NCBI GenBank assembly: GCA_002773535.1
Contig: PFAZ01000001.1
Coordinates: 89,273 to 153,272, forward strand
Direction of reading: 5' to 3'
Length of the DNA: 64,000 nt
From: Candidatus Harrisonbacteria bacterium CG10_big_fil_rev_8_21_14_0_10_40_38
GTDB taxonomy: Bacteria; Patescibacteriota; Minisyncoccia; UBA6257; 1-14-0-10-40-38
The notes below the pieces were generated by a model. The model was given only the letters and a program-made list of their open reading frames with translations. It was not told where the DNA came from and did no database searches. Below, piece by piece: positions 1 to 64,000 of this stretch. Numbering within the stretch: the first letter of the stretch is position 1; each line of letters opens with the position of its first letter. The translations under genes and the position numbers were made by a program.

Positions 1-273
1 AAAATATCCTGAGCCAAGCCGAAGGATAACCTTTAAAAATAAAAAATAATACACTGACATTTTAAGACACATACTCTGTATGTGTCGTAAAATGTATATT
101 GTACGACAGGTAGTATTTTGGTTTAAGCACCCACGTGGATATGCTCTTCCCTAGTTTTAATTGCAAGTCATCAGTCGTCAGTCTTAAGTTGTTAGTTGCT
201 TAACCCACTCACATTCACTATGTCGCATTCTATATTTCACAGCCTTAAGTTGTCAGTCATTGGTCTTCAGTTA

Positions 274-1281
274 TCAGTTCTTCAGTTTTTTACTCGCCCT
301 ATAAAGCCCATACCAGAGCTTATTTAGCGGTAAATCCCACGTACCAGGATATGTAACTATAAAACCGCCAAAACTCTTCTTATAAGCCGTTATACCGCTC
401 CATCTTGGGTTTTGCTCGCTAACACCCCAAAAATCAAATACAGAGCATCCTCGTCGCTTTGCATCCATTATCGCCTGCCATAGTAATAGCGTCGGTGCAT
501 TATACCTTCCAAACCCGCTTGCAGAGGCCGAATATAGATATATTGCCGTCTTTCCGAAGTAAATTATTATCGCCGAAGACAAAACCTTTCCATCTTCCAT
601 TTTCGCAACAAAAAGATCCGCTTCGATACCTCCGCTAAGTTCAAGCACCGATTCGTAGTAAGCTTTTGGATAAGCTTTTAATTTATGTCGCGTGTTTGTC
701 TCGCGAAAAAGTTTCCAGAACTCATCAAAACTTTTTTTCTGGTTGGAAGAAGAAACTGTTTCAATAGTTATATTTCTTTTAAGAGCGGTCTTAATCGCAT
801 ATCGTGTCCCCTGCTCCATTTCCTTAAATAAAACTTTTTCTGATTTTGTCAAATCAATTACAAGAGTATGTTCTGGTTGTGCTTCGATAGATTCGACAAA
901 CCCAAGCGAGCGAAGAGTCTTTATTGCAAATGTCACATTTCCCAAATCAGAAGGAACCGGTTCAAGTCTCAAAAAAATTGTTTCTTTGGATAATTCTTTT
1001 TTTACAAAATCAACAAGCCTCTTTAGGGTTTCTGGGTATTCATTTATTAAAACTGGTCCACGCGGCGCGTAGAGATATCTTTTTTCATAAGGAAGCTTGT
1101 GCTCAGTAATAAGCGCCGCCATCTGTGAACTACCTATTCGCCAGATTTTTCTTCCACGCGCCTCCTGAAAATCTCCCCATTCCCAACTTTGCAAAAAAGA
1201 ACCGCCGTTTTCAGTTACGAACTTGTTCCAGTTATTTTGTTTAGCCGAATCGACATAATAGTGTAAAGATCGTCCCTCCAT
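274..1281 (-). CDS. FemAB-family peptidoglycan interpeptide-bridge transferase (aminoacyl-tRNA dependent)
   Basis: 335-aa ORF with the FemAB/MurM-like fold signature in the translation (WEWGDFQ, YLYAPRGPV); sits in a cell-wall gene block. Confidence 0.7.
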   Translation of the reverse strand: MEGRSLHYYVDSAKQNNWNKFVTENGGSFLQSWEWGDFQEARGRKIWRIGSSQMAALITEHKLPYEKRYLYAPRGPVLINEYPETLKRLVDFVKKELSKETIFLRLEPVPSDLGNVTFAIKTLRSLGFVESIEAQPEHTLVIDLTKSEKVLFKEMEQGTRYAIKTALKRNITIETVSSSNQKKSFDEFWKLFRETNTRHKLKAYPKAYYESVLELSGGIEADLFVAKMEDGKVLSSAIIIYFGKTAIYLYSASASGFGRYNAPTLLLWQAIMDAKRRGCSVFDFWGVSEQNPRWSGITAYKKSFGGFIVTYPGTWDLPLNKLWYGLYRASKKLKN

Positions 1282-2617: not shown

Positions 2618-4147
2618 TCAAAGTCCAAGATCGCCGCCAATAGACCCTAGTTTTTTAATAGCCACACCAATTCGCGATAAAGTCTCATTCTTTCCCAATA
2701 CATCCATTATCTCAAATGGCCCAGGGGAAGCTTCCTTTCCCGAAAGCGCAACCCTAAGAGGCCACAATACTGCTCCCCTGCCCACTCGATCCGAAATCTC
2801 GGACAAAACTTCTAAAAGTCTATTGGCATTAAACGAATCATCGGAAACATTAGAAATAATTTTCTCAACCGATTCCAATGTTTCGGCAACAACAGATGCT
2901 GGCGCATCCTGCCATATAAGCATCTTAGGCTCATAATCCGGCAGTTCAAAAAAGAAATCCGAAAGCTCTATAAAATCGGTTAATTTTTTCATCCGTTCCA
3001 TGCTAAAAGACAGGAGCCTGTCTATCTGTGATTCAGAAAGACCATCTGGAATAGTTGAAACATTTTTTATAGCCACAAGGAGATCTTTTTGAGAAAGCGA
3101 TTTTATATACTGTGCATTCATCCAATCAAGTTTTTGCCCATTAAACACAGCTCCGGCCTTCTGTACCCTTTCAATTTCAAAAAGTTTTACAAGTTCATCT
3201 TTGGTAAAAATCTCTCTTTCTTCACCGTTTTCATCAGCCGACTGTTCAGCGCTTGGATGCCACCCTAAAAGCGCCAAGAAATTAAATAAAGCCTCAGGAA
3301 GGTAGCCGTCTTTTTTATATTCCGACACCGCGGTGTCAGAAAATCTCTTAGACATCTTTGTTTTGTCCGGATTTAAAATTAGCGGCATGTGGGCATAATG
3401 TGGCACATGAAATCCAAGCGCCTCAATGAGCGCCACTTGTTTTGCGGTATTCGAAAAATGCTCCTCACCACGTATCACATGAGTTATCTGCATTTCAGAG
3501 TCATCAATAACAACAGCAAAATTATAAAGCGGATCATCGAGTGATCTTGCGATAACTATGTCACCGGAAAGTGACAAATCAAAAACGGTTTTTCCACGTA
3601 TCATGTCATTAACCGAAACTTTCGCCTCAGGCATTTTAAATCTAAGAACGGCAGATTCCCCATCTGACATTCTTTTCTCTGCTTCTGATGTAGGAACCCC
3701 TCTACACCTGCCACTATATTTTGGCGGCTGCCCTTGGGTCATCTGGCTCTGCCTCATCGCTTCAATTTCCTCCTTTGTACAAAAACACCAGTATGCATGT
3801 TTTTCCTCGATAAGTTTTTTTGCATACTTTTCATAAATCTCGCTTCTTTCACTCTGTCTATATGGCCCAAATTTTCCCAACTCGTTTTCAGTTTTTAGTT
3901 CCAAGTTTTTAGTTAATTGTGGTCCTTCATCCCAATCAATCCCGAGCCATTCCAAATTTTCCAAGATATTCTCTTCGTATTCTGGAAGAGAGCGTTCCTT
4001 ATCGGTATCTTCTACTCGCACAACAAAAACACCTTCATGTTTTCGTGCATAAAGCCAGTTAAATAAAGCAGTTCTAGCGCCTCCAATATGCAGATTTCCC
4101 GTAGGGCTTGGCGCAAAACGCACTCTTGGTGGCTTACTGGGAGTCAT
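2618..4147 (-). CDS. gltX: glutamyl-tRNA synthetase
   Basis: HIGH motif (PTGNLHIGGART) and KMSKR motif present; 509 aa; carries an ~18-aa LKTKN-type insertion encoded by the heptad repeat (see findings). Confidence 0.9.
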   Translation of the reverse strand: MTPSKPPRVRFAPSPTGNLHIGGARTALFNWLYARKHEGVFVVRVEDTDKERSLPEYEENILENLEWLGIDWDEGPQLTKNLELKTENELGKFGPYRQSERSEIYEKYAKKLIEEKHAYWCFCTKEEIEAMRQSQMTQGQPPKYSGRCRGVPTSEAEKRMSDGESAVLRFKMPEAKVSVNDMIRGKTVFDLSLSGDIVIARSLDDPLYNFAVVIDDSEMQITHVIRGEEHFSNTAKQVALIEALGFHVPHYAHMPLILNPDKTKMSKRFSDTAVSEYKKDGYLPEALFNFLALLGWHPSAEQSADENGEEREIFTKDELVKLFEIERVQKAGAVFNGQKLDWMNAQYIKSLSQKDLLVAIKNVSTIPDGLSESQIDRLLSFSMERMKKLTDFIELSDFFFELPDYEPKMLIWQDAPASVVAETLESVEKIISNVSDDSFNANRLLEVLSEISDRVGRGAVLWPLRVALSGKEASPGPFEIMDVLGKNETLSRIGVAIKKLGSIGGDLGL

Positions 4148-19383: not shown

Positions 19384-19728
19384 TTACAATTCATAATTTC
19401 TAATTTTTAATTCACGTCTTAATTTCCTATAATCCGGAAAAACCCTCGAAACTAAACCCCAAAACCTCGGCGAATGATTAAACTCTTCGAGGTGACAGAG
19501 CTCATGGACGATTACGTAGTCTCGGAGAATTGCCGGCAGAAAAAATAATTTATAGTTAAAATTCAAATTCCTTTTTTCACTACAACTTCCCCAGCAGGTT
19601 TTTTGATTTTTAATAAATATCCGATTAAAAGAGTGATCATAAATCTGGTTAAAATAGCCAACCCTCTCATGAATCAACCTCCTCGCATCTTCCTTGTATT
19701 TCTTATAATGAAACTTCGTAAGCCGCAT
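19384..19728 (-). CDS. YgjP/DUF45-like metal-dependent hydrolase (HExxH)
   Basis: WGSCS...VHELCHL motif arrangement typical of DUF45. Confidence 0.5.
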   Translation of the reverse strand: MRLTKFHYKKYKEDARRLIHERVGYFNQIYDHSFNRIFIKNQKTCWGSCSEKRNLNFNYKLFFLPAILRDYVIVHELCHLEEFNHSPRFWGLVSRVFPDYRKLRRELKIRNYEL

Positions 19729-19834: not shown

Positions 19835-20221
19835 ATGTTCAAAATAAAAAAAGAGACAGTCGTTGTAACAACCTCCGCCCTCCTTACAGTTGTTGCCGCG
19901 ATGCATTTATTGAGAATTATTTTTAACGTCGACATTAAGATAAACGGCACAAGTCTCATGATCTGGCCGAGCTACGTTGCTGTTTTAGCTCTAGGATTCC
20001 TCGCAGTTCTAAATCTTGAATCAATAGAAAGAAGGAATAAGACCACTTGGATAAAGTTTATTATGTGGCTCTTTGTACTCGACGCCATCGGGGTCTTCTA
20101 TTCATGGATGAGCAATCTTAGCTACTGGGGCATTTCAAGGAATGGATTCGGAGTAATCACACTTTTTGATGTTTTAATTGTCATCATTCTCGCGACAAGC
20201 ATAAGAAAAGCCAATCGATAA
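19835..20221 (+). CDS. membrane protein (hypothetical)
   Basis: 128 aa, 4 predicted TM helices; followed by terminator. Confidence 0.45.
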   Translation: MFKIKKETVVVTTSALLTVVAAMHLLRIIFNVDIKINGTSLMIWPSYVAVLALGFLAVLNLESIERRNKTTWIKFIMWLFVLDAIGVFYSWMSNLSYWGISRNGFGVITLFDVLIVIILATSIRKANR

Positions 20222-20240
20222 ACAATAACATATCAAAAAA

Positions 20241-20278
20241 CACCTCATATGCCATTAAATATATGAGGTGTTTTTTTA
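20241..20278 (+). terminator. rho-independent terminator
   Basis: acacctcatat...atatgaggtg hairpin followed by T7. Confidence 0.7.
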
Positions 20279-20311
20279 GGAAAAAACCAATAAAGTAAAG
20301 GAAAATTAACT

Positions 20312-20340
20312 ATTGACATAAACAGTATATTATGATAATA
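20312..20340 (+). promoter_or_regulatory. strong sigma70 promoter with extended -10 (TTGACA-N17-TGaTAATAT)
   Basis: Perfect -35, 17-nt spacer, TG-extended -10. Confidence 0.65.
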
Positions 20341-20344
20341 TATC

Positions 20345-20812
20345 CAAGCTCAATAAGAGCACAAATTTGTAAAGTACTTTTTGGAGGAGAATCATGCGCA
20401 AGTCCTGCCCCGTCCCCTTTTGCGACTCTCACACCGATTCGCGACTGAAGCGCCGGCTCCGTGGAAACCACGGAGAACGTCACCGTCGTCGCATCAATCG
20501 CGAGCTGGAAAAATTCATCTCCCTCGCGACGGCCAGGTCGACAGTGCCAGAGGGGGCGAGACGAGTCGCCCCCACACCTCCACCCGCAAGGACGAGAGTC
20601 GCTCGTCTCTTCTCGGGGTTGCGCAGGGTCTTCGCCCTGAGCTAGCCACTACCCCACCAAACCGCCCTACACACTGCAAAGTGTGTAGGGCATTCCATTT
20701 TAAAAAGACTTCAAAATCAGTTATAATCAAAAACAGCGAGATAGATTTTGGGTACTAAACAACCCTCCCCAAGGGGGATAAAGCGCCCATAAATCTATCT
20801 CGGTTTTTTTTG
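20345..20812 (+). ncRNA. candidate novel structured RNA (GC-rich, ~470 nt); alternative reading: 83-aa Arg-rich ORF 20394-20645
   Basis: ~60% GC core in a ~38% GC genome; all three overlapping frames on both strands are open (expected for GC-rich RNA); many hairpins (ccgtgg-aaa-ccacgg, gggggcga...tcgccccc, gccctacacac...gtgtgtagggc); ends at a compound terminator 20737-20811. GGAGGA plus ATG at 20394 keeps a basic-protein reading possible. Confidence 0.4.
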
Positions 20813-20838
20813 ACAAGAATTAAGAAACAAGCTATCAT
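20810..20838 (+). promoter_or_regulatory. sigma70-like promoter (TTGACA-N17-TATCAT)
   Basis: Motif and spacing. Confidence 0.5.
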
Positions 20839-20844
20839 ATCAAA

Positions 20845-21167
20845 TTGTTAGATCTTTGAAAAAAACCGAGGCAGTTGTTTTTAGGTCGTGGATGAATGGC
20901 CTCTTTCACCACCAAGTACTAACTGCCTCGGTTTCCAATGAATCCATAGCACTCTTTCTGTGCTGCCCGTTGTCCTCCCCTCCTCGTAGCGGCGCAGGAA
21001 AAGTGTCTATGGAGTCATACAAGGTCGACAAATAGTTTTCTACGCAGTCCTTAGCACACTCCTCATCTCAAAAGAAGTGCGCAAGAAGATCCTCCGGCGC
21101 AGAATAACCAATTGTTGACCCAGTCCCTCGGTGAATCTCGCCCTTCACCGAGGGGCTCTTTTTTTTC
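20845..21167 (+). ncRNA. candidate structured RNA (~320 nt) ending at terminator 21125-21167
   Basis: Long-range 12-bp stem accgaggcagtt (20865-20876) / aactgcctcggt (20921-20932); GC-rich middle; canonical terminator ccctcggtgaa...ttcaccgagggg plus T9; no credible ORF. Confidence 0.35.
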
Positions 21168-21529
21168 GACAAATATTTGTAAAGATGCTTTAATAAAAAA
21201 AATAGGCTCTGGGCTGGGTTTCGAGCAGCGAATATGGACGATATTCGCCTGCTATAAGAAGCCCGGTCTGGAGCCACCTATCCTTAGACATATTTCCATA
21301 ACAACCAAACCACGGATTTTCACCCCGTGTTTTTTTTGACAAATTATTTCTCTCCCCTTATCAATGCAGAAAAGTTAGGATCATCTGCATATTTTAGAGC
21401 CCTGTCATTTATAAAAAATCTTTCTCTAGCTTCTTCAAAAGTAATGTCCGTATCAATTAGTCCAAGATCATACGCCAACTTATCTGAATCAGCTTAAACC
21501 TCTGCGAATATATAGCTTCAATATAAATA

Positions 21530-21760
21530 TTGTTTTGTAAACATTTCGATGGTATATTGCAAATAGCAAAAATTGACTCTGGGCTGGTCCGTGGTGAACC
21601 TCTAAGTAGAGATTCGTAGCCGTGATCTACCAGCCCAGAGTCACTACATAGTTCCTTTCCATAGCTCGGGGGCAATCAAATGTGTTTATCCAGTGAGGGG
21701 TCTGGCAGAACCCGAAAATAGCTAAATACATATGACCTGTCCCCGGGTCATTCTTTTTTT
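21530..21760 (+). ncRNA. candidate small RNA with 14-bp perfect inverted repeat (promoter TTGTTT-N17-TATATT; terminator 21732-21760)
   Basis: gactctgggctggt (21575-21588) pairs with accagcccagagtc (21629-21642); the arm motif ctctgggctgg recurs at 21205-21217; hairpin plus T8 terminator. Confidence 0.35.
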
Positions 21761-21814
21761 AGAAAACAAAAACGTGACCTACAAAGGCCACGTTTTTTGC
21801 TTATCTACACAACA

Positions 21815-22018
21815 CTAGTTTTCTGGGGTTTCTTCCCACAACTTATCAAACATCGCATTCCATTCGGTCATACTTTCCGGTGTAGCTTTTTCTACCATAT
21901 CTTTATGAGCTTCTTTTGCGTGTTCACTCATTTTTCCGCGTACTTCATCAACTGTTTCGCCGGAAGCTTCAAATGTGCATTCGCCTCCTCCAACTTGAGA
22001 ACATTTAATTGTTTTCAT
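21815..22018 (-). CDS. DUF1059-like small protein
   Basis: 67 aa with MKxxxCxxxGGxCxFEAxGET...HAKEAH pattern; bidirectional terminator hairpins at 21773-21798. Confidence 0.5.
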   Translation of the reverse strand: MKTIKCSQVGGGECTFEASGETVDEVRGKMSEHAKEAHKDMVEKATPESMTEWNAMFDKLWEETPEN

Positions 22019-22159
22019 TTTTATAAATTAGGTTAATCTTTCGACCGGGCAAACATAGCACGAATCAAGTAGATAGTCTATAAAGATATTTTTTTATTGA
22101 CATCGCAAAATTTTCTTTTATTCTTACAACCAGATCATATCCCAAGAAGGAGGTGTGTT

Positions 22160-22816
22160 TTGACAACAGGTCATTTCAGTAGCTGTATTACTCACGATGA
22201 CTGCTGGTGCGAAGCCAAGCGATATTGGCTCTTACTTGCTATAGCTACAGTCATTTTGTTTACCGAAGTGGTTGGAGGTGTTCTGTCGCATAGTCTTGCA
22301 CTTCTTGCAGATGCCGGGCACGTATTAGCAGACACAGGGGCAACCGTTGTCGCAATCATAGTAGCCTATAAGGTAAAAAAGAGTCCGCATGTCGAGTCAA
22401 AAACACGAAAAATCGGCGGTTATATAAACGCCATATTCCTCGGAGTCATTGGGATTTGGATTTTCATTGAAGCAATTGAGCGCTTCTTTAATCCTCATCC
22501 AATTGTAAGCATGACTATGATAGTCGTAGCAATTCTCGGCACCATCGGTAACTATATCCAGCATGCGATAATGGAGTCCGCAAATGCAGAACACGTCACG
22601 CACGAATCCATGAAACTCCATATCCTCTCCGATCTTCTGCAAAGTATTGGAGTTGTACTCGGTGGAGTGATTATATGGGCAACAGGGTGGGATCCACTCG
22701 ACCCAATAATCTCAGTGGTTATCGCAATTTTAATGGCGCGCTGGTCTTGGAGTCTTTTGCTCAAACTGCGATCCGGCAAATATGACAATGGCAGCCACTG
22801 CCACCATCACCACTAA
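22160..22816 (+). CDS. cation diffusion facilitator (Co/Zn/Cd efflux, CzcD-like)
   Basis: CDF TM signature HSLALLADAGHVLAD, C-terminal His-rich tail (HCHHHH); RBS AGGAGG then TTG start at 22160 (the tracked ORF begins at 22097). Confidence 0.75.
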   Translation: MTTGHFSSCITHDDCWCEAKRYWLLLAIATVILFTEVVGGVLSHSLALLADAGHVLADTGATVVAIIVAYKVKKSPHVESKTRKIGGYINAIFLGVIGIWIFIEAIERFFNPHPIVSMTMIVVAILGTIGNYIQHAIMESANAEHVTHESMKLHILSDLLQSIGVVLGGVIIWATGWDPLDPIISVVIAILMARWSWSLLLKLRSGKYDNGSHCHHHH

Positions 22817-22902
22817 AAGTGGTACTTCAAACCTCTAAACCCCCTACCCCCGACACAACCTCGTCGGGGTATTTTTTAACAATCGTTTTACTTTACTATG
22901 TG

Positions 22903-22973
22903 CTGCGGGACCTGGATTCGAACCAGGATACTCGGCTTCAAAGGCCGATGTCCTACCATTAGACGATCCCGCA
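22903..22973 (-). tRNA. tRNA-Gln (anticodon UUG), CCA not encoded
   Basis: Hand-folded cloverleaf: acceptor TGCGGGA/TCCCGCA, D-arm GTCT/GGAC, anticodon stem TCGGC/GCCGA with loop CTTTGAA, T-arm CCTGG-TTCGAAT-CCAGG. Confidence 0.75.
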
Positions 22974-23014
22974 ATAAATTGTTCAACTACTCTACATATA
23001 ATTCTACAAGAATA

Positions 23015-23085
23015 ATGTCCTACTTGCCTCGCCGAACCCAGCTTTGCGAGGGTAGGCGGGCCATTAGACGATCCCGCAATAAATT
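23015..23085 (-). pseudogene. partial duplicate of the tRNA-Gln 5' half plus 5' flank, interrupted by a 37-nt structured insert
   Basis: 25 nt (23061-23085) identical to 22956-22980 and atgtcctac (23015-23023 = 22948-22956); insert 23024-23060 forms nested stems; anticodon/T arms absent. Confidence 0.6.
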
Positions 23086-34537: not shown

Positions 34538-34885
34538 GCGAGTTCTCCAAAAGTGGGTTTGAAAAGAACAACGGCAGTCTACATAAAATTAAAAACATTG
34601 TAAATATCCACACATAAAAATTTGCGATAATTTAGTAAAAAAGTTAATCTGAAATCAGCATTCGGACATAAGGGAGGCGGTCTCAAAAATCTAAAAGCAG
34701 CAAGAAGGAACCCCTCCTTTATCGATACCCTCGCCGAGACATGCTAGATCTCGGCGAGGGGTTTTCTTTTTTTAAAAAAACCGCGCCCATATTTTCAGTT
34801 ATTAGTCGTCAGTCGTAAGTTCCTAGTCGCTACCCACTAACCCATCTAATTCCTAGTGGCTTAAATTAGTTTTCAGTTTTCTGTT

Positions 34886-37468
34886 TCAAGTCTTTAGTAT
34901 CCTCCTAAGATATTCCCCCGTAAAACTTTTCCCTGTTTTAGCTATCTGCTCTGGCGTCCCTTCCGCAATTATTTTTCCTCCCTTGTCTCCTCCTTCGGGC
35001 CCAAGGTCAATGACCCAATCAGCAGATTTTATTACATCAAGATTGTGTTCGATAACAACAACGCTGTTTCCACGCTCAACAAGCCTGTTTAAAACATCAA
35101 GGAGTTTTTGAACATCGGCAAAATGAAGTCCGGTAGTCGGTTCATCAAAAAGATAAATTGTTCGGTGCGTATCACGCTTTCCAAGTTCCGCAGAAAGCTT
35201 AATGCGTTGCGCCTCACCGCCAGATAATGTCGTCGCAGATTGTCCAAGTTCAAGATAGCCCAAGCCAACTTCTTCTAAAATTTTAAGCCTGTCGTGCAAC
35301 CAAGGAACATCATAAAAAAAAGTTACAGCCTCCTCAACGGTCATTTTAAGAACCTCATGAATATTTTTCCTATTCTTATCTTTCCCTCTTCGATCAAGAC
35401 CGGAAGTAGTCGATGGGCCATAAGTAACTTCTAAAGTCTCGCGGTCAAATCTTTTACCACGGCAAACATCACACTCAACATAAACCGTTGGTAAAAAATG
35501 CATTTCAATCGCGATTACTCCATGTCCCTCGCAGTTTTCACATCGCCCTCCTTTTACGTTGAAGCTAAATCTCCCCGGTTTATATCCTCTCACTCTCGCC
35601 TCTTCAGTAGAAGCAAAAAGATCACGAATATACGTCCACGCGCCTACGTAAGTTGCAGGGTTTGATCTAGGCGTCCTTCCGATCGCCGACTGATCAATGT
35701 TTATAACCCGATTCAAATTCTCCAGACCGGAAAGTGAGCTCATCTCCGCTGTCTTATATTTTGTATAGTTAAATTTGTTTGAAAGCGAACGATAAAGAAC
35801 GTCATAAAGAAGAGTGCTTTTCCCAGAACCAGAAACACCCGTTATAGCCACAAATCTTTTAAGAGGTATCTTTGCGGTAACTCCTTTCAGGTTATTTATA
35901 TTAATATTTTTCGCTACTAAAAACGGATGATCTTTCTTTAGCTTCCTCCTTTCAGACGGAACAGCTATCATCTGTTTTCCACGAAGATAATCAAGTGTCG
36001 GTGAATGTTGCTTCGTATCTTTCAAAAGCGCTGGCATCGGCCCAGCAGCAACCACGTGTCCTCCGTGAACACCAGCTCCGGGCCCGATATCTACTAGATA
36101 ATCAGATGCCCTGATTGTATCTTCGTCGTGTTCAACGACAAGGATTGAGTTCCCAAGATCACGAAGTTCTAGAAGCGTATTTATTAGTTTTGCGTTATCT
36201 CTTTGGTGTAGGCCAATGGTCGGTTCATCAAGAACATAAAGCGCTCCAACAAGTCGGGAGCCAATCTGCGATGCCAACCTTATTCTCTGCGCTTCACCTC
36301 CAGAGAGAGTCCCCGCCTTTCGGTTTAAAGTAAGATACTCAAGCCCAACATCGTACATAAACTTAAGTCGGCTCTGAATCTCGCGAAGCGGAACCTCTGC
36401 AATAGCGAGTATATTTTGCGCATCCTGCTGCCTCTTCAATGAAAACTTCTTTTTAAAAGATTCAAAAAATTCAGTCGCCTCCGATATAGAAAAACCCGTA
36501 ACCGAAGCAATATTTTTTCCATCAATTAAAACATTTAACGCTTCAGGCTTTAGTCTTCGCCCCTCGCATGCTTTACAAATATTATCCGAAAAAAGATCTT
36601 CAGTCCCAAGACCGTGGCAAGTTTCACATGCTCCAAATGGACTATTAAATGAAAAAAGTCTCGGTTCGATTTCCGGAAAAGAAAATCCATCTCTAGGACA
36701 AGTAAACTTTGTCGAAAAAGACGCTTCGCGATCAGTCACGATTGTCGCAACTCCTTTGCCATATTTGAGCGCATTCTCAACTGCCTCCGAAACGCGCAAA
36801 CGACTATCCTTACTCGAAAAGTCGAGCATGCCGGGCATCCTATCTACCACAAGCTCAATCGTATGCATTTTATATCGCGCGATATCTATCCTGTCATGAA
36901 GCGAAATATATTCCCTATCAATCCTCGCTTCCGAAAAACCGGCATTCAAAAGATCATACAAAAGCTGAAAGTGTTCACCCTTTCGGCCCTGAACAACCGG
37001 CGCCAAAATAACAAGATTTTTTCCTTTGCCGGTTTTTGCAAAATCAATCGCAATATCCACTATCTCCTCGTTTGTAAGCCGCCTTATCTCTTCTCCGCAA
37101 TCAGGGCAGTGTGGAACACCGGCGCGAGCAAAAAGTACCCGAAGATAATCATATATCTCGGTTATCGTAGCAACTGTAGAACGAGGATTTGCGCTATGAC
37201 TTTTTTGGTCAATGGAAATTGCAGGCGAAAGCCCCTCAATCTCATCAACATCGGGTTTATCAAGCTTTCCTAAAAATTGCCTCGCATACGCAGAAAGCGA
37301 CTCAATATATCGCCTCTGCCCTTCGGCAAAAATTGTATCAAACGCAAGTGAAGACTTCCCAGAACCAGAAAGACCCGTAAACACAACCAGTTTATCCCTC
37401 GGAATCTCGAGTGAAATATTTTTCAGGTTATGTTGCCGCGCTCCTTTGATTTTGATTTTATTTTGCAT
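34886..37468 (-). CDS. uvrA: excinuclease ABC subunit A
   Basis: Two ABC ATPase modules ([18 protein letters not shown]), LSGGE signatures, zinc-finger CxxC pairs; 860 aa. Confidence 0.9.
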
Positions 37469-38403: not shown

Positions 38404-38532
38404 AACTAAATTATAACCAAATTAAAATCATAAAAATAACTAACTCTACACAGAAAGCGCATCTCGCCCACACTCACCTATCACTCACTTTTTTTATCAC
38501 CTTTTTCACCAACCATTATCCATTTCCACTCA

Positions 38533-38568
38533 CCTAACAATTTTTGACGATCGTCAAAAATTGTTAGG
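38533..38568. promoter_or_regulatory. 36-bp perfect palindrome CCTAACAATTTTTGACGATCGTCAAAAATTGTTAGG upstream of uppP
   Basis: Perfect dyad symmetry; near-identical copy at 39980-40015. Confidence 0.7.
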
Positions 38569-38679
38569 TAAATTATTAAGTAAGCAGTAAAAGATTAAAA
38601 ATCTAAAGTTGGCAAAATAAAAAAAGAATCGCCCCCTAAATCGGGGGCGTCCTAAAAGCGAGTAAGTGATTTTTCCGAA

Positions 38680-39744: not shown

Positions 39745-39949
39745 AAAACAAAAAAAGCCGCTGCTAGAAATTGAAACGCCAGTCCCCAAAACAAGCTCGG
39801 CACTCACTTTGAGGTGTTTCAATCTCTAGCAACGACGGAGCTATTACAAGTGACAGTTCGCGACCCCGTTTAGGCGCGGAATTACCTAACAGAGAAACTA
39901 TCACCTGTAACAACAAACACCATACTAATCAATAGAAAAAAATTGTCAA
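39745..39949 (-). promoter_or_regulatory. minus-strand promoter (TTGACA-N17-TAGTAT) plus leader containing a 19-bp-stem hairpin followed by a U-run (attenuator or small RNA)
   Basis: -35 TGTCAA at 39944-39949 and -10 at 39922-39927 on + coordinates; stem 39759-39777 / 39816-39834; U-run 39745-39757. Confidence 0.45.
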
Positions 39950-39979
39950 CTACCCCAAAAAAACCACACCCAAACACCA

Positions 39980-40015
39980 CCTAACAATTTTTGACGATCA
40001 TCTAAAATTGTTAGG
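39980..40015. promoter_or_regulatory. second copy of the 36-bp palindrome (34/36 identical)
   Basis: CCTAACAATTTTTGACGATCATCTAAAATTGTTAGG, immediately upstream of the DUF218-operon promoter. Confidence 0.7.
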
Positions 40016-40018
40016 TAA

Positions 40019-40867: not shown

Positions 40868-42955
40868 TTACAAACCTCTCCCTTTGCTTTTCTTAATCAA
40901 AACTCTCATTTCGTCTCTCAAAATCGCAGCTAGCTCAAAGTCCAGTTGCTTCGCCGCCTCCTTCATTTCCAATTCTTTTTCTTTGATTAGTTTTTCGATA
41001 GCAGTTTTTGATTTCGGCATCGGTTTCATTTCAAAACGAAGCACATCTTCCGCCAACTTACCCTTTTCATCATATTCAGGAAGAATATCCTTAACAGCTT
41101 TAATAATTGTTTTCGGCGTAATGCCATGTTTCTTGTTATATTCCATCTGCAATTTTCTCCTTCTATCGGTTTCTCTTACAGCTCTTTCGATTGAACCGGT
41201 TATACGATCAGCATAAATCACCACTTCACCGGCAACGTTTCTTGCCGCGCGCCCAATAGTTTGAATGAGCGATGTTTCACTCCTCAAAAATCCTTCTTTG
41301 TCAGCATCTAAAATCGCCACCAGTGAAACTTCTGGCAAGTCTAATCCCTCACGAAGCAGGTTTACACCAACAAGCACATCAAAATCCCCTCTTCTAAGCG
41401 CGGTTAATATTCTTATCCTATCGAGTGTTTTCACGTCACTATGTAAATAAGCAACCTTCGGCTTCAAGTTTTTAGTTTTTAGTTTTAAGTTCGCAAGATA
41501 TTCCGAAAGATCTTCAGCCATCTTTTTTGTAAGCGTCGTAACTAAAACTCTTTCTTTTTTTCCAACCCTCTCTACGATCCTTTCGATCAAGTCATCTATC
41601 TGACCCAAAACCGGCCTCATGGTAATTTTTGGATCAACGAGCCCGGTCGGCCTGATAATCTGCTCAACAACCTGACCCGTTCGCGTGTTGCTTGTCACTT
41701 GCCGCTCGTAAGGTCCCGGTGTAGCCGATGTATACACAATATTCGAAACTCTCTTTAAAAACTCATCAAATTTCAAAGGCCTGTTATCCGCCGCAGAAGG
41801 CAGTCGAAACCCATATTCTATTAAAGTCTTTTTACGAGAAGCATCGCCTGCGTGCATTCCCTGGATCTGCGGCACAGTTACGTGAGATTCATCAATAACA
41901 GTCAAAAAGTCGGGTTTTCCGTCCTTTGTTTTTGGAAAATAATCCAAAAGCGTATCTGGCGGCGCTCCGGCAGCTCTCCCTGAAAGGTGACGCGAATAGT
42001 TTTCAATTCCATTACAATAACCAATCTCGTTTATCATCGCGATATCAGCCTTAGTTCTTCTTTCAAGTCTTTCTGCTTCAAGATATTTTTTTTCTTTCTC
42101 AAATTTTACGAGCTGCGCTGAAAGCTCCTTTCGTATAGCAGCAACAGCTCTTTGCCTATCATCTTTTTGAGTAATAAAATGCTTTGCGGGAGAAATTATG
42201 AGTTCTGGTATTAATGGAGTTTTACCGGGTTGAAAACCAGCAACAGGATCAACCTCAAAAATTTTCTCAATTACGCCATCGTGAGTTTTCACAAAATAAA
42301 TCAACTCTCTGTCAGGAGGCATTATTTCCCATTGATCACCCCTAAGACGAAAACTTCCACGTTTTAAGTCGGCAGATGTCCTCGTAAAATGAAGCTCGAT
42401 AAGTTTGCGGGCAAAAGACGCTCTATCAATCTTATCGCCCTCTTTAAAATGAAAAATGTTTTGCGCATAAACTTCCGGCGCGCCAAGTCCGTATATGCAC
42501 GAAACCGAAGCGACAACTATCACATCACGTCGCGTGAGAAGCGCAGTCGTAGCCGCATGTCGCAATTTATCAATCTCATCGTTTATCATCGCCTCTTTTG
42601 CGATATATGTGTCCGACATCGGCATGTATGCCTCCGGCTGATAGTAGTCGTAGTATGAAACAAAATAATGAACCGCGTTATTCGGAAACAATTCCCGAAA
42701 CTCATTGGCAAGCTGTGCCGCCAAAGTTTTATTGTGAGCGATTACAAGAGCCGGTTTATTTATTTCCGCTATCACGTGCGCCGCAGTGAAAGTTTTTCCG
42801 CTTCCGGTAACACCAAGAAGGATCTGATTTCGCAGATTTTTTTTGATACCAGAAACCAAAGCGGATATCGCTTTAGGCTGATCCCCAGCCGGTTTGTTTT
42901 TTGATTCAACACGAAACATAAGGAGAAGAATACTGATATTACTGAATAATATCAA
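40868..42955 (-). CDS. uvrB: excinuclease ABC subunit B
   Basis: Walker A GVTGSGKTF, helicase motifs, beta-hairpin region, C-terminal UVR domain; contains NLKLKTKNLKPK heptad-repeat insertion. Confidence 0.9.
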   Translation of the reverse strand: MILFSNISILLLMFRVESKNKPAGDQPKAISALVSGIKKNLRNQILLGVTGSGKTFTAAHVIAEINKPALVIAHNKTLAAQLANEFRELFPNNAVHYFVSYYDYYQPEAYMPMSDTYIAKEAMINDEIDKLRHAATTALLTRRDVIVVASVSCIYGLGAPEVYAQNIFHFKEGDKIDRASFARKLIELHFTRTSADLKRGSFRLRGDQWEIMPPDRELIYFVKTHDGVIEKIFEVDPVAGFQPGKTPLIPELIISPAKHFITQKDDRQRAVAAIRKELSAQLVKFEKEKKYLEAERLERRTKADIAMINEIGYCNGIENYSRHLSGRAAGAPPDTLLDYFPKTKDGKPDFLTVIDESHVTVPQIQGMHAGDASRKKTLIEYGFRLPSAADNRPLKFDEFLKRVSNIVYTSATPGPYERQVTSNTRTGQVVEQIIRPTGLVDPKITMRPVLGQIDDLIERIVERVGKKERVLVTTLTKKMAEDLSEYLANLKLKTKNLKPKVAYLHSDVKTLDRIRILTALRRGDFDVLVGVNLLREGLDLPEVSLVAILDADKEGFLRSETSLIQTIGRAARNVAGEVVIYADRITGSIERAVRETDRRRKLQMEYNKKHGITPKTIIKAVKDILPEYDEKGKLAEDVLRFEMKPMPKSKTAIEKLIKEKELEMKEAAKQLDFELAAILRDEMRVLIKKSKGRGL

Positions 42956-59939: not shown

Positions 59940-60285
59940 TCATTAACTAGATCAATTAGTCGTTACATGTCGCATTTAACATTCCACAATCTTCAGTATT
60001 TAGTTTTCAGTTTCAAGTTTTCGGTTTTTAGTTGTAAGTCTTAAGTCTTAAGTTTTCGTCTTCGGTCATTAGTATTTGGAATTTATTTGTAATTTGGGAT
60101 TTGGAATTTAATTAGGTCAATTAGATTAATTATCATGCCGAAGGCAGATCCTCCTCCGGAGGAGCAATTAGAAATTAGTCGTTAGTCTTCAGTTATTAGT
60201 TTTTAGTTGCTAGTTGCTAGTCTTTAGTTGTAAGTTGTAAGTCACATTGTTTTACATATAACATTTCACATGCCACAATATTGTT
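59940..60285. repeat. intergenic repeat block: AGT-heptad arrays, ATGTCGCATT...CCACA core copies, ATTAG array, 14-bp palindrome CTCCTCCGGAGGAG
   Basis: Runs of 7-nt units tagtcgt/tagtctt/cagttat/tagtttt/tagttgc...; core motif at 59964-59990 and 60255-60285. Confidence 0.7.
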
Positions 60286-62813: not shown

Positions 62814-63239
62814 ATGATTCACAATTCCCCTCTCATCATCTATACAGACGGCGGCGCCAGAGGTAATCCCGGTCCTGCAGCGATTGGATATGTTATTGGC
62901 GAAAAAACCTATGGCGAAGCAATAGGCTCCGCAACAAACAATATTGCCGAATACAGCGCAGTAATAGCAGCCCTCAAAAAAGCAAAACTTCTAATCGGAA
63001 AAGACAAAGCAAAAAAAACCGATGTTAAAGTCAACATGGACAGCGAGTTAGTTGTCCGCCAAATGAACGGAGAATATAAAATCAAAGAACCAGAACTCCA
63101 AAAACTATTCATTGAAATCTGGAACTTAAAACTCGACTTTAAGTCTGTCTCCTTTTCACATATCCCAAGAGAGCAAAACCGCGAAGCAGACAGACTTGTA
63201 AACGAAGCTCTAGATAAAGAAAAATCAAAGTTGTTTTAA
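62814..63239 (+). CDS. rnhA: ribonuclease H (type 1)
   Basis: DGG...NN.AEY...D...REQN..AD catalytic DEDD arrangement (TDGGARGNPG, NNIAEY, MDSELVV, REQNREADRL). Confidence 0.75.
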   Translation: MIHNSPLIIYTDGGARGNPGPAAIGYVIGEKTYGEAIGSATNNIAEYSAVIAALKKAKLLIGKDKAKKTDVKVNMDSELVVRQMNGEYKIKEPELQKLFIEIWNLKLDFKSVSFSHIPREQNREADRLVNEALDKEKSKLF

Positions 63240-63244
63240 TAAAA

Positions 63245-63432
63245 TACTGCCTACGTCATAAGACGCAGGCAGCACTACCTCTCTCGCCGAGAGGCAAGGC
63301 TGAAGCGGGTTAGGCTTCAACGAGACGCTGGATCACCTCTCTTTCAACGAGACCAAGGTTGCTTTTTAGACGAACCATAGGCGTCTCCTTGTCAAGAAGC
63401 GAATCCACATTTCTGTTTGAGCAACAGAAATG
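63245..63432 (-). ncRNA. candidate small RNA (~185 nt) with own -10 box and intrinsic terminator
   Basis: Minus-strand TATAAT (+63444-63449) then 5' hairpin (63408-63432), GC-rich stems (cctctc/gagagg, gaagc/gcttc, gagacgc/gcgtctc), terminal hairpin 63248-63273 followed by U-run. Confidence 0.35.
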
Positions 63433-63450
63433 CTTCAAACAAAATTATAG

Positions 63451-63505
63451 CATAAAATAAAAAATCACCTCGTCTTCGACTTTTTCAAGTCAAAAACAAG
63501 GTGAG
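63451..63505 (-). terminator. rho-independent terminator of the small peptide gene
   Basis: tcacctcgtcttcgac...gtcaaaaacaaggtga hairpin plus U-run on minus strand. Confidence 0.55.
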
Positions 63506-63632: not shown

Positions 63633-64000
63633 CGATTTTTCTCCTCAAAAAAAGCGAGACATACACCTTCACTCTATGTGTGAATCTTCCTCCCAATATT
63701 TATCCTTTAAAGAGTTAAGGAGCCAAAGAACAATACCCATCAAGACCACTAAGACTGAACCTACAACAAACTCCATAAGACACCTCCAAAAAAACCAATC
63801 AACAATATAATGAATAGAAATATATAAAAAGTAAAGTAAATAACAAAAAACCGCTGGAAATTCCAGACGGTTCTTTGTTGTCGGTAGCCTATAAGCCGGA
63901 TTCTGTTTTACCTCGCCGAAGATCTAGCGAAGGCGGATTTTATCTCGCCCGCAAAACTTGGATAGATAAACGATAGCCATCTATCTAGCCCTGCAATTAC

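What the first reader, a model, noticed from the sequence alone, without database searches (positions are those of the whole stretch)
20230..21800. 1.5-kb non-coding island with several promoter/terminator-bounded, GC-rich, highly structured transcripts next to tRNA-Gln
In a genome where most genes abut, 19835-21815 holds no convincing ORF. It contains three consensus promoters (20312-20340, 20810-20838, 21530-21558), at least four hairpin+T-run terminators, and segments whose GC (~55-60%) greatly exceeds the surrounding sequence. Long-range perfect stems of 12-14 bp (20737-20748/20791-20802, 20865-20876/20921-20932, 21575-21588/21629-21642) argue for folded RNAs, not decayed coding sequence. 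I could not match tmRNA, RNase P RNA, SRP RNA or 6S RNA: the P4 AGGAAAGUCCGG motif, the SRP GGAAGCAGCC motif, a tRNA-like CCA end and any tag-peptide ORF are all absent. The island ends at a tRNA-Gln with a partial duplicate, a classic landmark for acquired DNA.
Basis: seen in the sequence. Interest (0 to 1): 0.8.

Follow-up and report, generated by a model that had tools for sequence, protein, structure and literature searches.

The report
Orphan cluster of hairpin-rich small RNAs
A 1.6-kb unannotated gap in a Candidatus Harrisonbacteria (CPR) genome is packed with promoter- and terminator-flanked long hairpins that most likely encode several lineage-specific small RNAs, but no relatives could be recruited, so their function stays a guess.

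Summary
Window 20,222-21,814 has no convincing native gene. It holds 13 of the 40 most over-folded 150-nt windows out of 1,278. Promoter-like sites number 9 against 2.4±1.3 in shuffles, and terminator-like sites 11 against 1.9±1.9. The putative transcripts fold with z-scores of -4.7 to -9.1.

Several details are wrong:
- The 128-aa ORF at 19,835-20,221 is a real gene.
- The third "consensus" promoter matches only 8 of 12 positions.
- Only 20,400-20,700 is about 60% GC.
- tRNA-Gln lies 1.1 kb away behind two genes and does not bound the island.

No Rfam family matches even at E≤10, and the RNase P RNA sits elsewhere (63,876 onward). The 83-aa ORF has a good ribosome-binding site but no homologue and no host-like codon use. 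A 44-aa minus-strand ORF looks weakly coding.

My best reading is a tandem cluster of orphan small RNA genes, mostly on the plus strand. U4 and U6 are paralogues whose shared stem keeps pairing through one compensatory change and four G·U changes.

Conservation could not be tested. All 13 recovered contigs are clonal. In the one related species found, homology stops exactly at the island's edge. Interest is moderate: these are new members of a known kind.

The parts
20235..20277 (.). Bidirectional intrinsic terminator of the 128-aa gene. It has a perfect 16-bp stem flanked by an A-run and a T-run, and marks the left edge of the island.
   Evidence: repeat I7 (16 nt, 100% complementary); sequence.
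20313..20341 (+). Promoter P1: TTGACA-17-TAATAT with an upstream TG.
   Evidence: 10 of 12.
20346..20700 (+). U1: GC-rich (0.60-0.64) multi-branched RNA of about 355 nt. It ends at a 12-bp GCAA-loop hairpin (20664-20691) with a weak T-tail. It contains an 83-aa ORF (20394-20645) preceded by GGAGG with 6-nt spacing.
   Evidence: Fold -142 kcal/mol, z -6.1 on +, against z -4.0 on -. The ORF is an orphan. Codon signal is flat (-0.79/-0.75/-0.49) and GC1/2/3 is 0.61/0.60/0.70. AF2 pLDDT is 63.
20699..20727 (+). Promoter P2: TTTAAA-17-TATAAT.
   Evidence: 10 of 12.
20733..20810 (+). U2: a single long hairpin (about 24 bp) with a CCCUCCCC apical region and a T8 tail. An A-run on the 5' side lets it act as a terminator on either strand.
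   Evidence: Fold -30.9, z -4.65; repeat I3; both strands fold equally.
20810..20838 (+). Promoter P3: TTGACA-17-TATCAT. Its -35 box overlaps the T-run of U2.
   Evidence: 11 of 12, one of four sites at 11/12, the top score, in the window.
20845..21166 (+). U3: about 322 nt with three long hairpins and a terminator.
- Hb (20860-20936).
- Hc (20936-21022), whose apical loop reads GUUGUCCUCCCCUCCUCGUAG.
- Hd (21020-21122).
- Terminator 21122-21157 (14 bp plus T8).

The strand is ambiguous for Hd.
   Evidence: + strand -123.9, z -9.1; - strand -134.7, z -9.4. Hd gives -44.5 with 8 G·U pairs on -, against -25.7 on +. Hc gives -37.6 on + against -31.4 on -. Terminator.
21166..21194 (+). Weak candidate promoter P4: TCGACA-17-TTTAAT, lacking the invariant A2. 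Read by eye only.
   Evidence: Sequence. The scans do not report it.
21200..21336 (+). U4: about 137 nt. It has a 30-bp hairpin (21204-21278), a C/U-rich single-stranded stretch (CCACCUAUCCUUAGACAUAUUUCCAUAAC), and a small terminator (21311-21329 plus T8).
   Evidence: Fold -53.5, z -6.8. The hairpin gives -46.9 with 5 G·U on +, against -27.4 with 0 G·U on -.
21344..21478 (-). 44-aa ORF with a TTG start and a poor ribosome-binding site, showing coding-like codon use. It could be a small gene or a gene remnant lying between the U4 and U6 paralogues.
   Evidence: Codon score 0.11 against -1.06 and -1.30. No family, PDB or phage match. The only SNP found in any recovered contig is here (21411 A>G, I23T).
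21530..21558 (+). Weak promoter P6: TTGTTT-17-TATATT with a TGn extended -10.
   Evidence: Sequence. It scores 8 of 12 and is not listed.
21564..21760 (+). U6: about 197 nt. It has a 5' hairpin (21572-21645, perfect 15-bp outer stem), the single-stranded stretch CUACAUAGUUCCUUUCCAUAG, and a second hairpin (21660-21752) ending in a terminator (21732-21751 plus T7). It is a paralogue of U4.
   Evidence: Fold -73.1, z -5.5. 26 nt at 85% identity shared with U4, including CTCTGGGCTGG (repeat D3, 24, 25). Stem comparison.
21768..21797 (.). Bidirectional terminator of the DUF1059 gene. It marks the right edge of the island and is the last base of homology with the related species.
   Evidence: repeat I21. 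The L086 alignment runs 22102..21768 at 79% identity and stops there.

Best explanation
The gap between the convergent 128-aa and DUF1059 genes holds a tandem cluster of lineage-specific small RNA genes. There are five or six compact units, mostly on the + strand. In each, a sigma-70-type promoter sits directly on the T-run of the preceding terminator. The transcript starts within about 2-18 nt of a long, G·U-containing hairpin of 25-40 bp, and ends at an intrinsic terminator.

- Shown: the signals and the folds exist, are far above chance, and match no known family.
- Inferred: the units are transcribed, and they act as RNAs.
- More speculative: at least some act in trans by pairing C/U-rich, anti-Shine-Dalgarno-like loops or single strands with GGAGG ribosome-binding sites of mRNAs, as CU-rich Gram-positive sRNAs do. 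The candidate stretches are UCCUCCCCUCCUC in the Hc loop, CCCUCCCC in U2, CACCUCC in U1, and CCUAUCCUU and UUCCUUUCC in U4 and U6.

U1 may instead, or also, be the mRNA of an orphan Arg-rich 83-aa peptide.
For: Enrichment and folding
- Promoter-like sites: 9 against 2.4±1.3. Terminator-like sites: 11 against 1.9±1.9.
- Three sites at 10 of 12 or better, all on the + strand, P=0.004.
- Terminator T-runs abut a -35 box at three places: 20802, 21159 and 21328 (repeats D1 and D7).
- Folding z-scores run from -4.7 to -9.1. The island holds 13 of the top 40 structured windows.

Strand-specific folding through G·U pairs, which argues for selection on RNA rather than on a DNA palindrome
- U4 hairpin: -46.9 on + against -27.4 on -, with 5 G·U pairs against 0.
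- Hg: -35.3 against -26.8. Hc: -37.6 against -31.4.

Paralogue comparison
- U4 and U6 share an outer stem of 13 pairs. Eight are invariant, four switch between Watson-Crick and G·U, one is fully compensatory, and none is broken.

Composition and coding
- GC of 0.46-0.62 resembles the genome's tRNA (0.56) and RNase P RNA (0.50), against 0.40 overall.
- The large ORFs have no coding signal and no homologues.

Similar units elsewhere
- Same genome: 39748-39945 on the - strand, z -8.5, with 8 G·U pairs per hairpin.
- Related species: two long hairpins in the L086 spacer.

Precedent
- LhrC sRNAs form a multi-copy locus (lhrC1-4). Each copy has its own promoter and redundant CU-rich target-binding sites in a loop, a single strand and the terminator (PMC4132741).
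Against: - No expression data and no orthologues exist. All 13 recovered contigs are 100% identical apart from one SNP. The nearest AddA homologue is 57% identical and not syntenic. So there is no real covariation test; two paralogues give no statistical power (260 of 500 shuffles reach the observed value).
- Strand assignment is inconsistent. Hd folds much better on the - strand (8 G·U pairs). The whole U3 region folds equally well on both strands. Hb and U2 could terminate minus-strand transcripts.
- Promoters for U4 and U6 are weak, and P5 fails the scan.
- CCUCC enrichment is modest and confounded by GC: 3.5 per kb in the island against 1.4 per kb on the + strand overall.
- Target scans in 64 kb gave nothing beyond what is expected from the extremes of the distribution.
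- In the related species nothing equivalent lies in this position.
Confidence: 0.5

Rival explanations
1. The island is non-functional or merely insulating intergenic DNA at a rearrangement breakpoint. A pile-up of long, often bidirectional, intrinsic terminators and fortuitous AT-rich promoter-like sites sits between two convergent genes, with no dedicated RNA products.
For: - Several hairpins carry an A-run on one side and a T-run on the other (T0, U2, 21768-21797). Hb is a terminator only for the minus strand.
- Structure is similar on both strands for Hb, Hf, U2 and the whole U3 region.
- Synteny with the related species ends exactly at the island edge.
- Nearby genes are rearranged: the tRNA-Gln is inverted and the cation-efflux gene is absent in L086.
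- Other intergenic regions of this genome also contain strong hairpins.
Against: - A reduced CPR genome keeping 1.6 kb of junk is unusual.
- One of the four 11/12 promoter matches in 64 kb, together with two more at 10 of 12, all point the same way and sit at a fixed distance before hairpins.
- G·U-driven strand asymmetry of U4, Hg and Hc, and the pair-preserving differences between U4 and U6, are not expected for neutral palindromes.
- U1 is a 300-nt multi-branched GC-rich fold, not a terminator.
Confidence: 0.2
2. The island is partly protein-coding. U1 is the mRNA of an 83-aa Arg-rich orphan protein, and 21344-21478 (-) encodes a 44-aa protein. The hairpins are their UTRs, terminators and antisense regulators.
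For: - A GGAGG lies 6 nt before the ATG at 20394. There is a consensus promoter about 50 nt upstream and a hairpin 19 nt after the stop.
- JGI gene callers called both ORFs.
- The 44-aa ORF has a codon signal like real small genes: 0.11 against -1.06 and -1.30, compared with DUF1059 at 0.06, -0.59 and -1.23.
Against: - The 83-aa ORF has no homologue among 5.8 billion proteins by word search, nor among 1.84 billion representatives by full HMMER. The only other hit is a low-complexity repeat protein.
- All three + frames are open in that stretch. Codon scores are flat and GC is flat across codon positions.
- AF2 gives pLDDT 63 with one confident helix.
- The 44-aa ORF has a TTG start, no ribosome-binding site at a proper distance, and no family, PDB or phage hit.
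- NCBI PGAP annotated neither ORF.
- Even if both are real, they cover only 390 of 1,590 nt.
Confidence: 0.12
3. The hairpins are palindromic mobile or repeat elements (MITE, REP or BIME-like), or the remnant of an integrated element next to tRNA-Gln.
For: - U4 and U6 share terminal stem sequences (GRCTCTGGGCTGG) with unrelated interiors.
- Assemblies break at the hairpins: contigs end at 20933, 21582 and 21640/21641.
- A 25-nt copy of the tRNA-Gln 5' end exists.
Against: - No other copy of any island segment occurs in the 64-kb window or in 20 kb of flanks.
- The hairpins are not similar to each other apart from U4 and U6.
- There are no target-site duplications, and no integrase or transposase within about 6 kb.
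- The tRNA is 1.1 kb away, and its partial copy is a 5' piece on the far side.
- No match was found in phages, plasmids or viral contigs.
- The metagenome pattern scan gave only chance hits in high-GC DNA.
Confidence: 0.05
4. The island is a guide-RNA array of an RNA-guided system, such as a TIGR-Tas stem-loop array or an IS110-type bridge RNA. Both occur in CPR bacteria.
For: TIGR stem-loop arrays are tandem hairpins with variable palindromic stems, and they are reported from CPR genomes (PMC12045711). The island is a tandem run of unrelated hairpins.
Against: - No Nop-domain, RuvC, HNH or DEDD protein is recorded within about 6 kb.
- The neighbouring unknown proteins have no PDB sequence match to Tas or Nop proteins.
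- The interiors of the hairpins are themselves base-paired, rather than forming open loops with two 8-12-nt spacers.
- The units are irregular (66-103 nt), not alignable, and individually flanked by promoters and terminators. No tandem repeat is present.
Confidence: 0.03

Closest known systems
Clustered, independently transcribed CU-rich sRNAs of Firmicutes (Listeria LhrC1-4 locus; PMC4132741)
   Same: Several small RNA genes sit side by side. Each has its own promoter and intrinsic terminator, and carries C/U-rich stretches in a hairpin loop, a single-stranded region or the terminator that could pair with GGAGG ribosome-binding sites. Part of the cluster is paralogous (U4 and U6).
   Different: LhrC copies are nearly identical 111-114-nt RNAs, conserved across a genus and experimentally shown to bind mRNA. 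Here only two of five or six units are related, sizes run from 75 to 355 nt, the hairpins are much longer (25-40 bp), and no conservation, expression or target is shown.
Candidate structured ncRNAs found as long GC-rich intergenic regions in AT-rich genomes (Breaker-lab GC-IGR/DIMPL approach; PMC8723152, PMC6429828, listed)
   Same: The signature is the same: an unusually long intergenic region with GC above the genome's average, strong predicted folds, and no ORF support.
   Different: Those candidates are accepted only after covariation in alignments of homologues. Here no homologue exists in any searched collection, and only U1 is truly GC-rich.
Bidirectional intrinsic terminators between convergent genes
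   Same: The island edges (20235-20277, 21768-21797) and the U2 hairpin are A-run/stem/T-run structures between convergent genes.
   Different: Six to eight extra hairpins, three near-consensus co-oriented promoters and a 300-nt GC-rich domain go far beyond what termination of two genes needs.
TIGR-Tas stem-loop guide arrays (PMC12045711)
   Same: Both are tandem hairpins with non-repetitive palindromic stems in a CPR genome.
   Different: There is no adjacent Nop-domain Tas protein, no regular unit, no open dual-spacer loop with box C/D motifs, and each unit has its own promoter and terminator.

Membership tests
Known RNA families (Rfam 15: RNase P, tmRNA, SRP, 6S, riboswitches, ribozymes, OLE/ROOL/GOLLD/HEARO etc.) | A covariance-model match at or near the family's gathering score | tested here: not met
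   - No match at gathering score.
- At E≤10 only chance-level hits of 16-27 bits to miRNA and sRNA hairpin models.
- ARAGORN finds no tmRNA.
- The relaxed search is sensitive enough in this lineage: it recovers the divergent RNase P RNA at 79.3 bits, E 5.5e-24, elsewhere in the genome.
Independently transcribed bacterial sRNA gene | Own promoter upstream and intrinsic terminator downstream on the same strand | tested here: met
   - U1, U2 and U3 have promoters at 10-11 of 12 and hairpin-plus-T-run ends.
- U4 and U6 have good terminators but only weak promoters (sequence).
Independently transcribed bacterial sRNA gene | No protein-coding capacity | tested here: inconclusive
   - Most ORFs lack a coding signal.
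- The 83-aa ORF has a ribosome-binding site but no homologue and flat codon statistics.
- The 44-aa minus-strand ORF has a weak coding-like signal.
Independently transcribed bacterial sRNA gene | Detected transcript of defined ends | not testable with these tools
   No transcriptome data are accessible.
Conserved structured ncRNA | Structure supported by covariation among homologues | tested here: inconclusive
   - No orthologues were recoverable.
- Only the U4/U6 paralogue pair is available. Of 13 stem pairs, 4 change on one side only, 1 is compensatory and none is broken, but with two sequences the shuffle control is uninformative.
CU-rich anti-Shine-Dalgarno sRNAs (LhrC/RsaE/RNAIII-like) | C/U-rich motifs exposed in loops or single strands, complementary to ribosome-binding sites of target mRNAs | tested here: inconclusive
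   - The motifs are present: the Hc apical loop reads UCCUCCCCUCCUC, and U2, U1, U4 and U6 also carry them.
- Enrichment is modest: CCTCC at 3.5 per kb against 1.4 per kb on the + strand.
- No convincing target was found in 64 kb.
tRNA-linked genomic island | The island abuts a tRNA gene and is bracketed by a direct repeat of the tRNA 3' end, usually with an integrase | tested here: not met
   - tRNA-Gln is at 22902-22973, 1.1 kb away behind two genes.
- The repeat is a 5' piece at 23061-23085 on the far side.
- The 3' end is single-copy.
- No integrase is recorded.
MITE / REP-type palindromic repeat | Many dispersed copies of the same element | tested here: not met
   - No further copy occurs in 64 kb plus 20 kb of flanks.
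- The rest of the 443-kb contig could not be read.
TIGR-Tas stem-loop array | An adjacent Nop-domain Tas protein | tested here: not met
   - Pfam records for all genes from 13.8 to 28 kb show no Nop, RuvC or HNH domain.
- Four neighbouring unknown proteins have no PDB sequence match.
- A fold-level test was not done.
TIGR-Tas stem-loop array | Regular stem-loop units whose loops carry two 8-12-nt spacers flanked by box C/D motifs | tested here: not met
   - The hairpin interiors are base-paired, and the units are 66-103 nt and not alignable.
- No periodicity is present.

The most novel reading that the evidence does not exclude
This Harrisonbacteria lineage encodes a class of long (70-100 nt, 25-40 bp), G·U-rich, strand-specific hairpin RNAs, made from their own promoters at several loci:
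- five to seven in this island;
- two at 39748-39945 on the - strand;
- two in the tRNA-Gln/DUF1059 spacer of the related species.

These would not be classical base-pairing sRNAs. They would be substrates or ligands of a double-strand-RNA-recognising machinery, for example RNase III-processed guides, or protein or phage-nuclease decoys. That would be a hairpin-RNA system without precedent in bacteria.
Probability: 0.1. Interest if true: 0.75.

Novelty: new member of a known kind. Interest (0 to 1): 0.4.

Why it matters
Non-coding RNAs of CPR/Patescibacteria are almost unstudied. These organisms have small, tightly packed genomes, so 1.6 kb given over to five or six promoter- and terminator-bounded hairpin RNAs suggests that RNA-based regulation, or something more unusual, matters to them.

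The case also shows a practical limit of annotation. Rfam's gathering scores miss even this genome's RNase P RNA, and PGAP left the island blank.

If transcription is confirmed, the island offers a compact set of candidate regulators for a lineage with no genetic system. The unusually long G·U-rich hairpins could then be tested for processing. Without homologues or expression data, it remains a well-supported prediction of ordinary kind (orphan sRNA genes), not a discovery.

Tried and rejected
Known RNA families
- Rfam at gathering score and at E≤10, plus ARAGORN, found nothing in the island.

Recruiting homologues
- Exact-protein look-ups of both flanking genes returned 13 contigs from several samples. 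All are the same clone: 100% identity with one SNP.
- The genome-contig scan with the 128-aa protein gave one unrelated alphaproteobacterial hit.
- Word searches with the 83-aa and 128-aa proteins found only themselves.
- AddA homologues are at most 57% identical, and their loci are not syntenic.
- The single metagenome scan used the U4/U6 hairpin pattern. It gave 67 hits, all chance matches in high-GC or eukaryote-like DNA, and did not contain the source contigs, so it says nothing about copy number.
- Three viral-contig scans gave nothing related: two found nothing, and one gave a single chance hit.
- Phage and plasmid blastn found no match.
- The only useful relative came from the 90% cluster of DUF1059. 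It shows that homology stops at 21768.

Coding hypotheses
- Pfam, PHROGs, NCBIfam and PADLOC on the 83-, 44- and 128-aa products gave nothing meaningful.
- Full HMMER of the 83-aa ORF found itself plus one low-complexity repeat protein.
- AF2 of the 83-aa product was inconclusive.
- PDB and phage tblastn of the 44-aa product found nothing.

Target prediction
- Exact or near-exact complements and RNAduplex scans of the loops against 64 kb gave top hits (z -4 to -6) no better than the extremes expected from 12,800 windows.

Other ideas
- An invertible-segment explanation for the contig breaks at hairpins was rejected. The contig ends match the reference exactly up to the break.
- TIGR arrays and tandem repeats were rejected.
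- A first whole-window shuffle scan timed out. It was replaced by a GC-regressed MFE scan.
Full report
ORGANISM AND SETTING

The flanking proteins are exact matches to a Candidatus Harrisonbacteria MAG from Crystal Geyser (CG10_big_fil_rev_8; locus tags COU07_00620 to 00645). The window averages 40% GC.

Gene order around the finding:
- YgjP-like gene (19384-19728, -)
- a 128-aa membrane-like gene (19835-20221, +)
- the gap
- DUF1059 (21815-22018, -)
- a cation-efflux gene (22160-22816, +)
- tRNA-Gln (22902-22973, -)
- a 222-aa unknown gene
- an AddA-like helicase

NCBI tags 00625 (128 aa) and 00630 (DUF1059) are consecutive, so the public annotation has nothing in the gap.

Mostly yes.
- Inside 20230-21800 the scan finds 9 promoter-like sites against 2.4±1.3 in shuffles, and 11 terminator-like sites against 1.9±1.9.
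- Across the 64 kb there are only 25 distinct sites at 10 of 12 or better. Three of them lie on the + strand of this 1.57 kb (expected 0.31, P=0.004) and none on its - strand. One of them, 20810-20838, shares the top score of 11/12 with three other sites in the window.
- The putative transcripts fold far better than dinucleotide shuffles: U1 z -6.1, U2 -4.7, U3 -9.1, U4 -6.8, U6 -5.5.
- In a GC-corrected scan of 1,278 windows the island supplies 13 of the best 40.
- It also supplies 4 of the 8 single hairpins at or below -35 kcal/mol that my scan caught. The minus-strand hairpin at 21020-21122 would be a fifth; that scan missed it.

- The 128-aa ORF has an in-frame codon signal like other genes (0.05 against -0.87 and -0.56) and is annotated by NCBI. 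The gap therefore begins at about 20222, not 19835.
- The 'consensus' promoter at 21530-21558 is TTGTTT/TATATT, 8 of 12, helped only by a TGn extended -10. The scan does not report it.
- GC of 55-64% applies only to about 20400-20700. The rest is 0.42-0.50.
- tRNA-Gln does not end the island. It lies 1.1 kb away with two genes in between. Its 25-nt duplicate (23061-23085) is a copy of the tRNA's 5' end plus 7 upstream bases, and it lies on the side away from the island. The 3' end of the tRNA is unique in the window.

ANATOMY

The stretch resolves into co-oriented units in which the T-run of one terminator runs straight into the -35 box of the next promoter. This TTTTTTTTGACAA-type junction occurs at 20802, 21159 and 21328 (repeats D1 and D7).
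- U1 (20346-20700) is a 355-nt, 60-64% GC, multi-branched fold that ends in a 12-bp GCAA-loop hairpin.
- U2 (20733-20810) is one long hairpin with a T8 tail.
- U3 (20845-21166) has three long hairpins (Hb, Hc, Hd) and a 14-bp terminator with T8.
- U4 (21200-21336) has a 30-bp hairpin, a C/U-rich single strand and a small terminator.
- U6 (21564-21760) has a 5' hairpin with a perfect 15-bp stem, a C/U-rich single strand and a second hairpin that ends as a terminator.
- Between U4 and U6 lies an AT-rich, unstructured 190 nt with a 44-aa ORF on the minus strand.
- The predicted starts fall 2-18 nt before the first hairpin of each unit.

RNA OR DNA, AND WHICH STRAND?

Folding both strands of each hairpin gives a mixed but informative picture.
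- The U4 hairpin is -46.9 kcal/mol on + (5 G·U pairs) and -27.4 on - (no G·U pairs).
- Hg is -35.3 against -26.8, and Hc is -37.6 against -31.4.
- Such asymmetry is what selection on an RNA, not on a DNA palindrome, produces.
- A clearly minus-strand unit elsewhere in the window (39748-39945, with its own promoter and terminator, z -8.5) shows the same habit, with 8 G·U pairs per hairpin on its transcribed strand.
- Against a simple all-plus model, Hd (21020-21122) is -44.5 with 8 G·U pairs on the minus strand and only -25.7 on the plus strand. The whole U3 region folds equally well on both strands (z -9.1 and -9.4). Hb carries a U7 tail on the minus strand.
- I found no acceptable minus-strand promoter upstream of Hd, so its orientation is unresolved.

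PARALOGY

U4 and U6 share 26 nt at 85% identity spanning the start region and the 5' arm, including CTCTGGGCTGG. Their interiors are unrelated. I extracted the two arms by hand to compare the 13-bp outer stems:
- eight pairs are identical;
- four differ on one side only, Watson-Crick against G·U;
- one differs on both sides, G-C against A-U;
- none is broken.

This is what structure-preserving evolution looks like. With two sequences the shuffle control cannot separate it from chance (260 of 500 shuffles reach the observed value), so I treat it as suggestive.

CODING POTENTIAL

The 83-aa ORF in U1 has a consensus promoter, a GGAGG 6 nt before the ATG, and a hairpin after the stop. That is why it cannot be dismissed. 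Several results count against it:
- All three plus frames are open there because of the GC content.
- Its codon score is no better in frame than out of frame (-0.79, -0.75, -0.49), and GC is flat over codon positions (0.61, 0.60, 0.70).
- It has no homologue by word search in 5.8 billion proteins, nor by full HMMER in 1.84 billion representatives. The one extra hit is a repeat protein matching a low-complexity stretch.
- AF2 gives pLDDT 63.

The 44-aa minus-strand ORF does show a coding-like signal (0.11 against -1.06 and -1.30). However, it has a TTG start, no well-placed ribosome-binding site and no family, PDB or phage match. It may be a small gene or a remnant.

KNOWN FAMILIES

No Rfam 15 model matches, even at E≤10 with relaxed filters. 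That relaxed search does work in this lineage. It finds the genome's RNase P RNA at window 63876 and beyond (543 nt, with the GAGGAAAGUCCGG P4 motif; 79.3 bits, E 5.5e-24). That score is below Rfam's gathering score of 100, so the default scan missed it. The island is therefore not RNase P RNA, and no hit suggests tmRNA, SRP or 6S RNA.

I also considered TIGR-Tas stem-loop arrays, which are tandem hairpins with variable palindromic stems found in CPR genomes (PMC12045711). I rejected them for these reasons:
- The defining Nop-domain protein is absent from the Pfam records of all neighbours and from PDB sequence matches.
- The hairpin interiors are paired rather than open dual-spacer loops.
- The units are irregular and individually bounded by promoters and terminators.

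COMPARATIVE EVIDENCE

This is the weak point.
- Thirteen contigs from at least eight samples carry the flanking genes, and all are identical to the window apart from one SNP in the 44-aa ORF.
- The nearest AddA homologue in the large protein collection is 57% identical, and its neighbourhood is unrelated.
- The metagenome pattern scan returned only chance matches and evidently does not hold the source contigs.
- Viral, phage and plasmid searches found nothing related.
- One related species surfaced through the 90% cluster of DUF1059 (P0125; L086 and L087). It aligns at 79-80% nucleotide identity from 22102 to 21768, that is, through the DUF1059 gene and its bidirectional terminator. The alignment then stops. 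Downstream is a protein gene, not an island.
- There the tRNA-Gln is inverted and directly adjacent, and the 345-nt spacer again holds two long hairpins (z -5.3 and -6.8).
- So the island is specific to this lineage in this position, the neighbourhood is rearranged, and long hairpins in intergenic DNA are a habit of the clade.

INTERPRETATION

The best-supported reading (confidence about 0.5) is a cluster of orphan small RNA genes.
- Shown: the signals and folds, their enrichment, strand-specific G·U pairing in several hairpins, the lack of any known family, and the lack of host-like coding signal.
- Inferred: transcription, and function as RNA.
- Suggested mechanism: pairing of exposed C/U-rich stretches with GGAGG ribosome-binding sites. 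These stretches are the 21-nt Hc loop with UCCUCCCCUCCUC, and the corresponding stretches in U2, U1, U4 and U6. The proposal is by analogy with LhrC-type sRNAs (PMC4132741).
- That mechanism is weakly supported. CCUCC is only 2.5-fold enriched in a GC-rich stretch, and no target stood out in 64 kb.

The rivals are:
- insulating or junk DNA at a rearrangement breakpoint (0.2);
- partial protein coding (0.12);
- palindromic repeat elements (0.05);
- a guide-RNA array (0.03).

VERDICT

This is a genuine, unannotated, strongly structured non-coding island. Several details of the first description are wrong, and the 'acquired at a tRNA' idea fails. It is probably a new set of members of a known kind (orphan sRNA genes). 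Interest is moderate (0.4). The long G·U-rich hairpins recurring at other loci leave a small chance of something more unusual.

Noticed in passing
window 63876-64000 (-), continuing to about 64418 (L088 12027-12569): The genome's RNase P RNA (bacterial type A) is cut by the window end. It is 543 nt long with large insertions and carries the GAGGAAAGUCCGG P4 motif. It scores 79.3 bits (E 5.5e-24), below Rfam's gathering score of 100, so default scans and probably annotation pipelines miss it.
   Followed up: yes
window 39748-39945 (-): Another unit of promoter (GTTGACA...TAGTAT), two long hairpins and a terminator. It is about 170 nt, z -8.5, with 8 G·U pairs per hairpin on the minus strand only. 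The style matches the island's units, but there is no sequence similarity.
   Followed up: partly
window 38532-38569 and 39979-40016: Two copies (95% identical) of a 38-nt perfect palindrome, ACCTAACAATTTTTGACGATCGTCAAAAATTGTTAGGT. They bracket 1.4 kb that holds three small ORFs (146, 68 and 65 aa) and the hairpin unit above. This could be an operator pair or the ends of a cassette.
   Followed up: no
window 63225-63470 (-): A structured unit of about 225 nt (z -7.7) with a TATAAT-like box upstream and a 14-bp terminal hairpin. It lies in a 1.27-kb non-coding gap that also holds the RNase P RNA. No Rfam match.
   Followed up: partly
window 163-279, 3879-3921, 34794-34898, 41441-41498, 59976-60243: Intergenic runs of 7-nt-periodic repeats of the form NNNAGTN, for example TTCAGTTATTAGTCGTCAGTCGTAAGTT. 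They recur at several places in the window (repeats D1-D3).
   Followed up: no
window 22981-23085 (-): Upstream of tRNA-Gln lies a second copy of its first 18 nt plus 7 upstream nt, followed by GC-rich sequence that ARAGORN does not call a tRNA. It may be a decayed tandem tRNA or a duplicated promoter. In the related species only one copy is seen.
   Followed up: partly
L086 1-1117 and L087 (ENA ERZ28563803, ERZ4903055): A related species has about 80% nucleotide identity in DUF1059. There the tRNA-Gln is inverted and lies directly next to DUF1059. The cation-efflux gene is absent from that spot, two long hairpins sit in the spacer, and a different gene follows the DUF1059 terminator. This points to local rearrangement around the finding.
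   Followed up: partly
window 20933, 21582, 21640/21641: Short contigs from other assemblies of the same clone end exactly at the edges of the strongest hairpins (Hb and Hf). The sequence is identical up to each break. This looks like an assembly or coverage effect of the hairpins, not an inversion.
   Followed up: yes
window 21411: The only SNP among all recovered contigs (A>G in ERZ27293412) falls in the 44-aa minus-strand ORF and would change Ile23 to Thr.
   Followed up: partly
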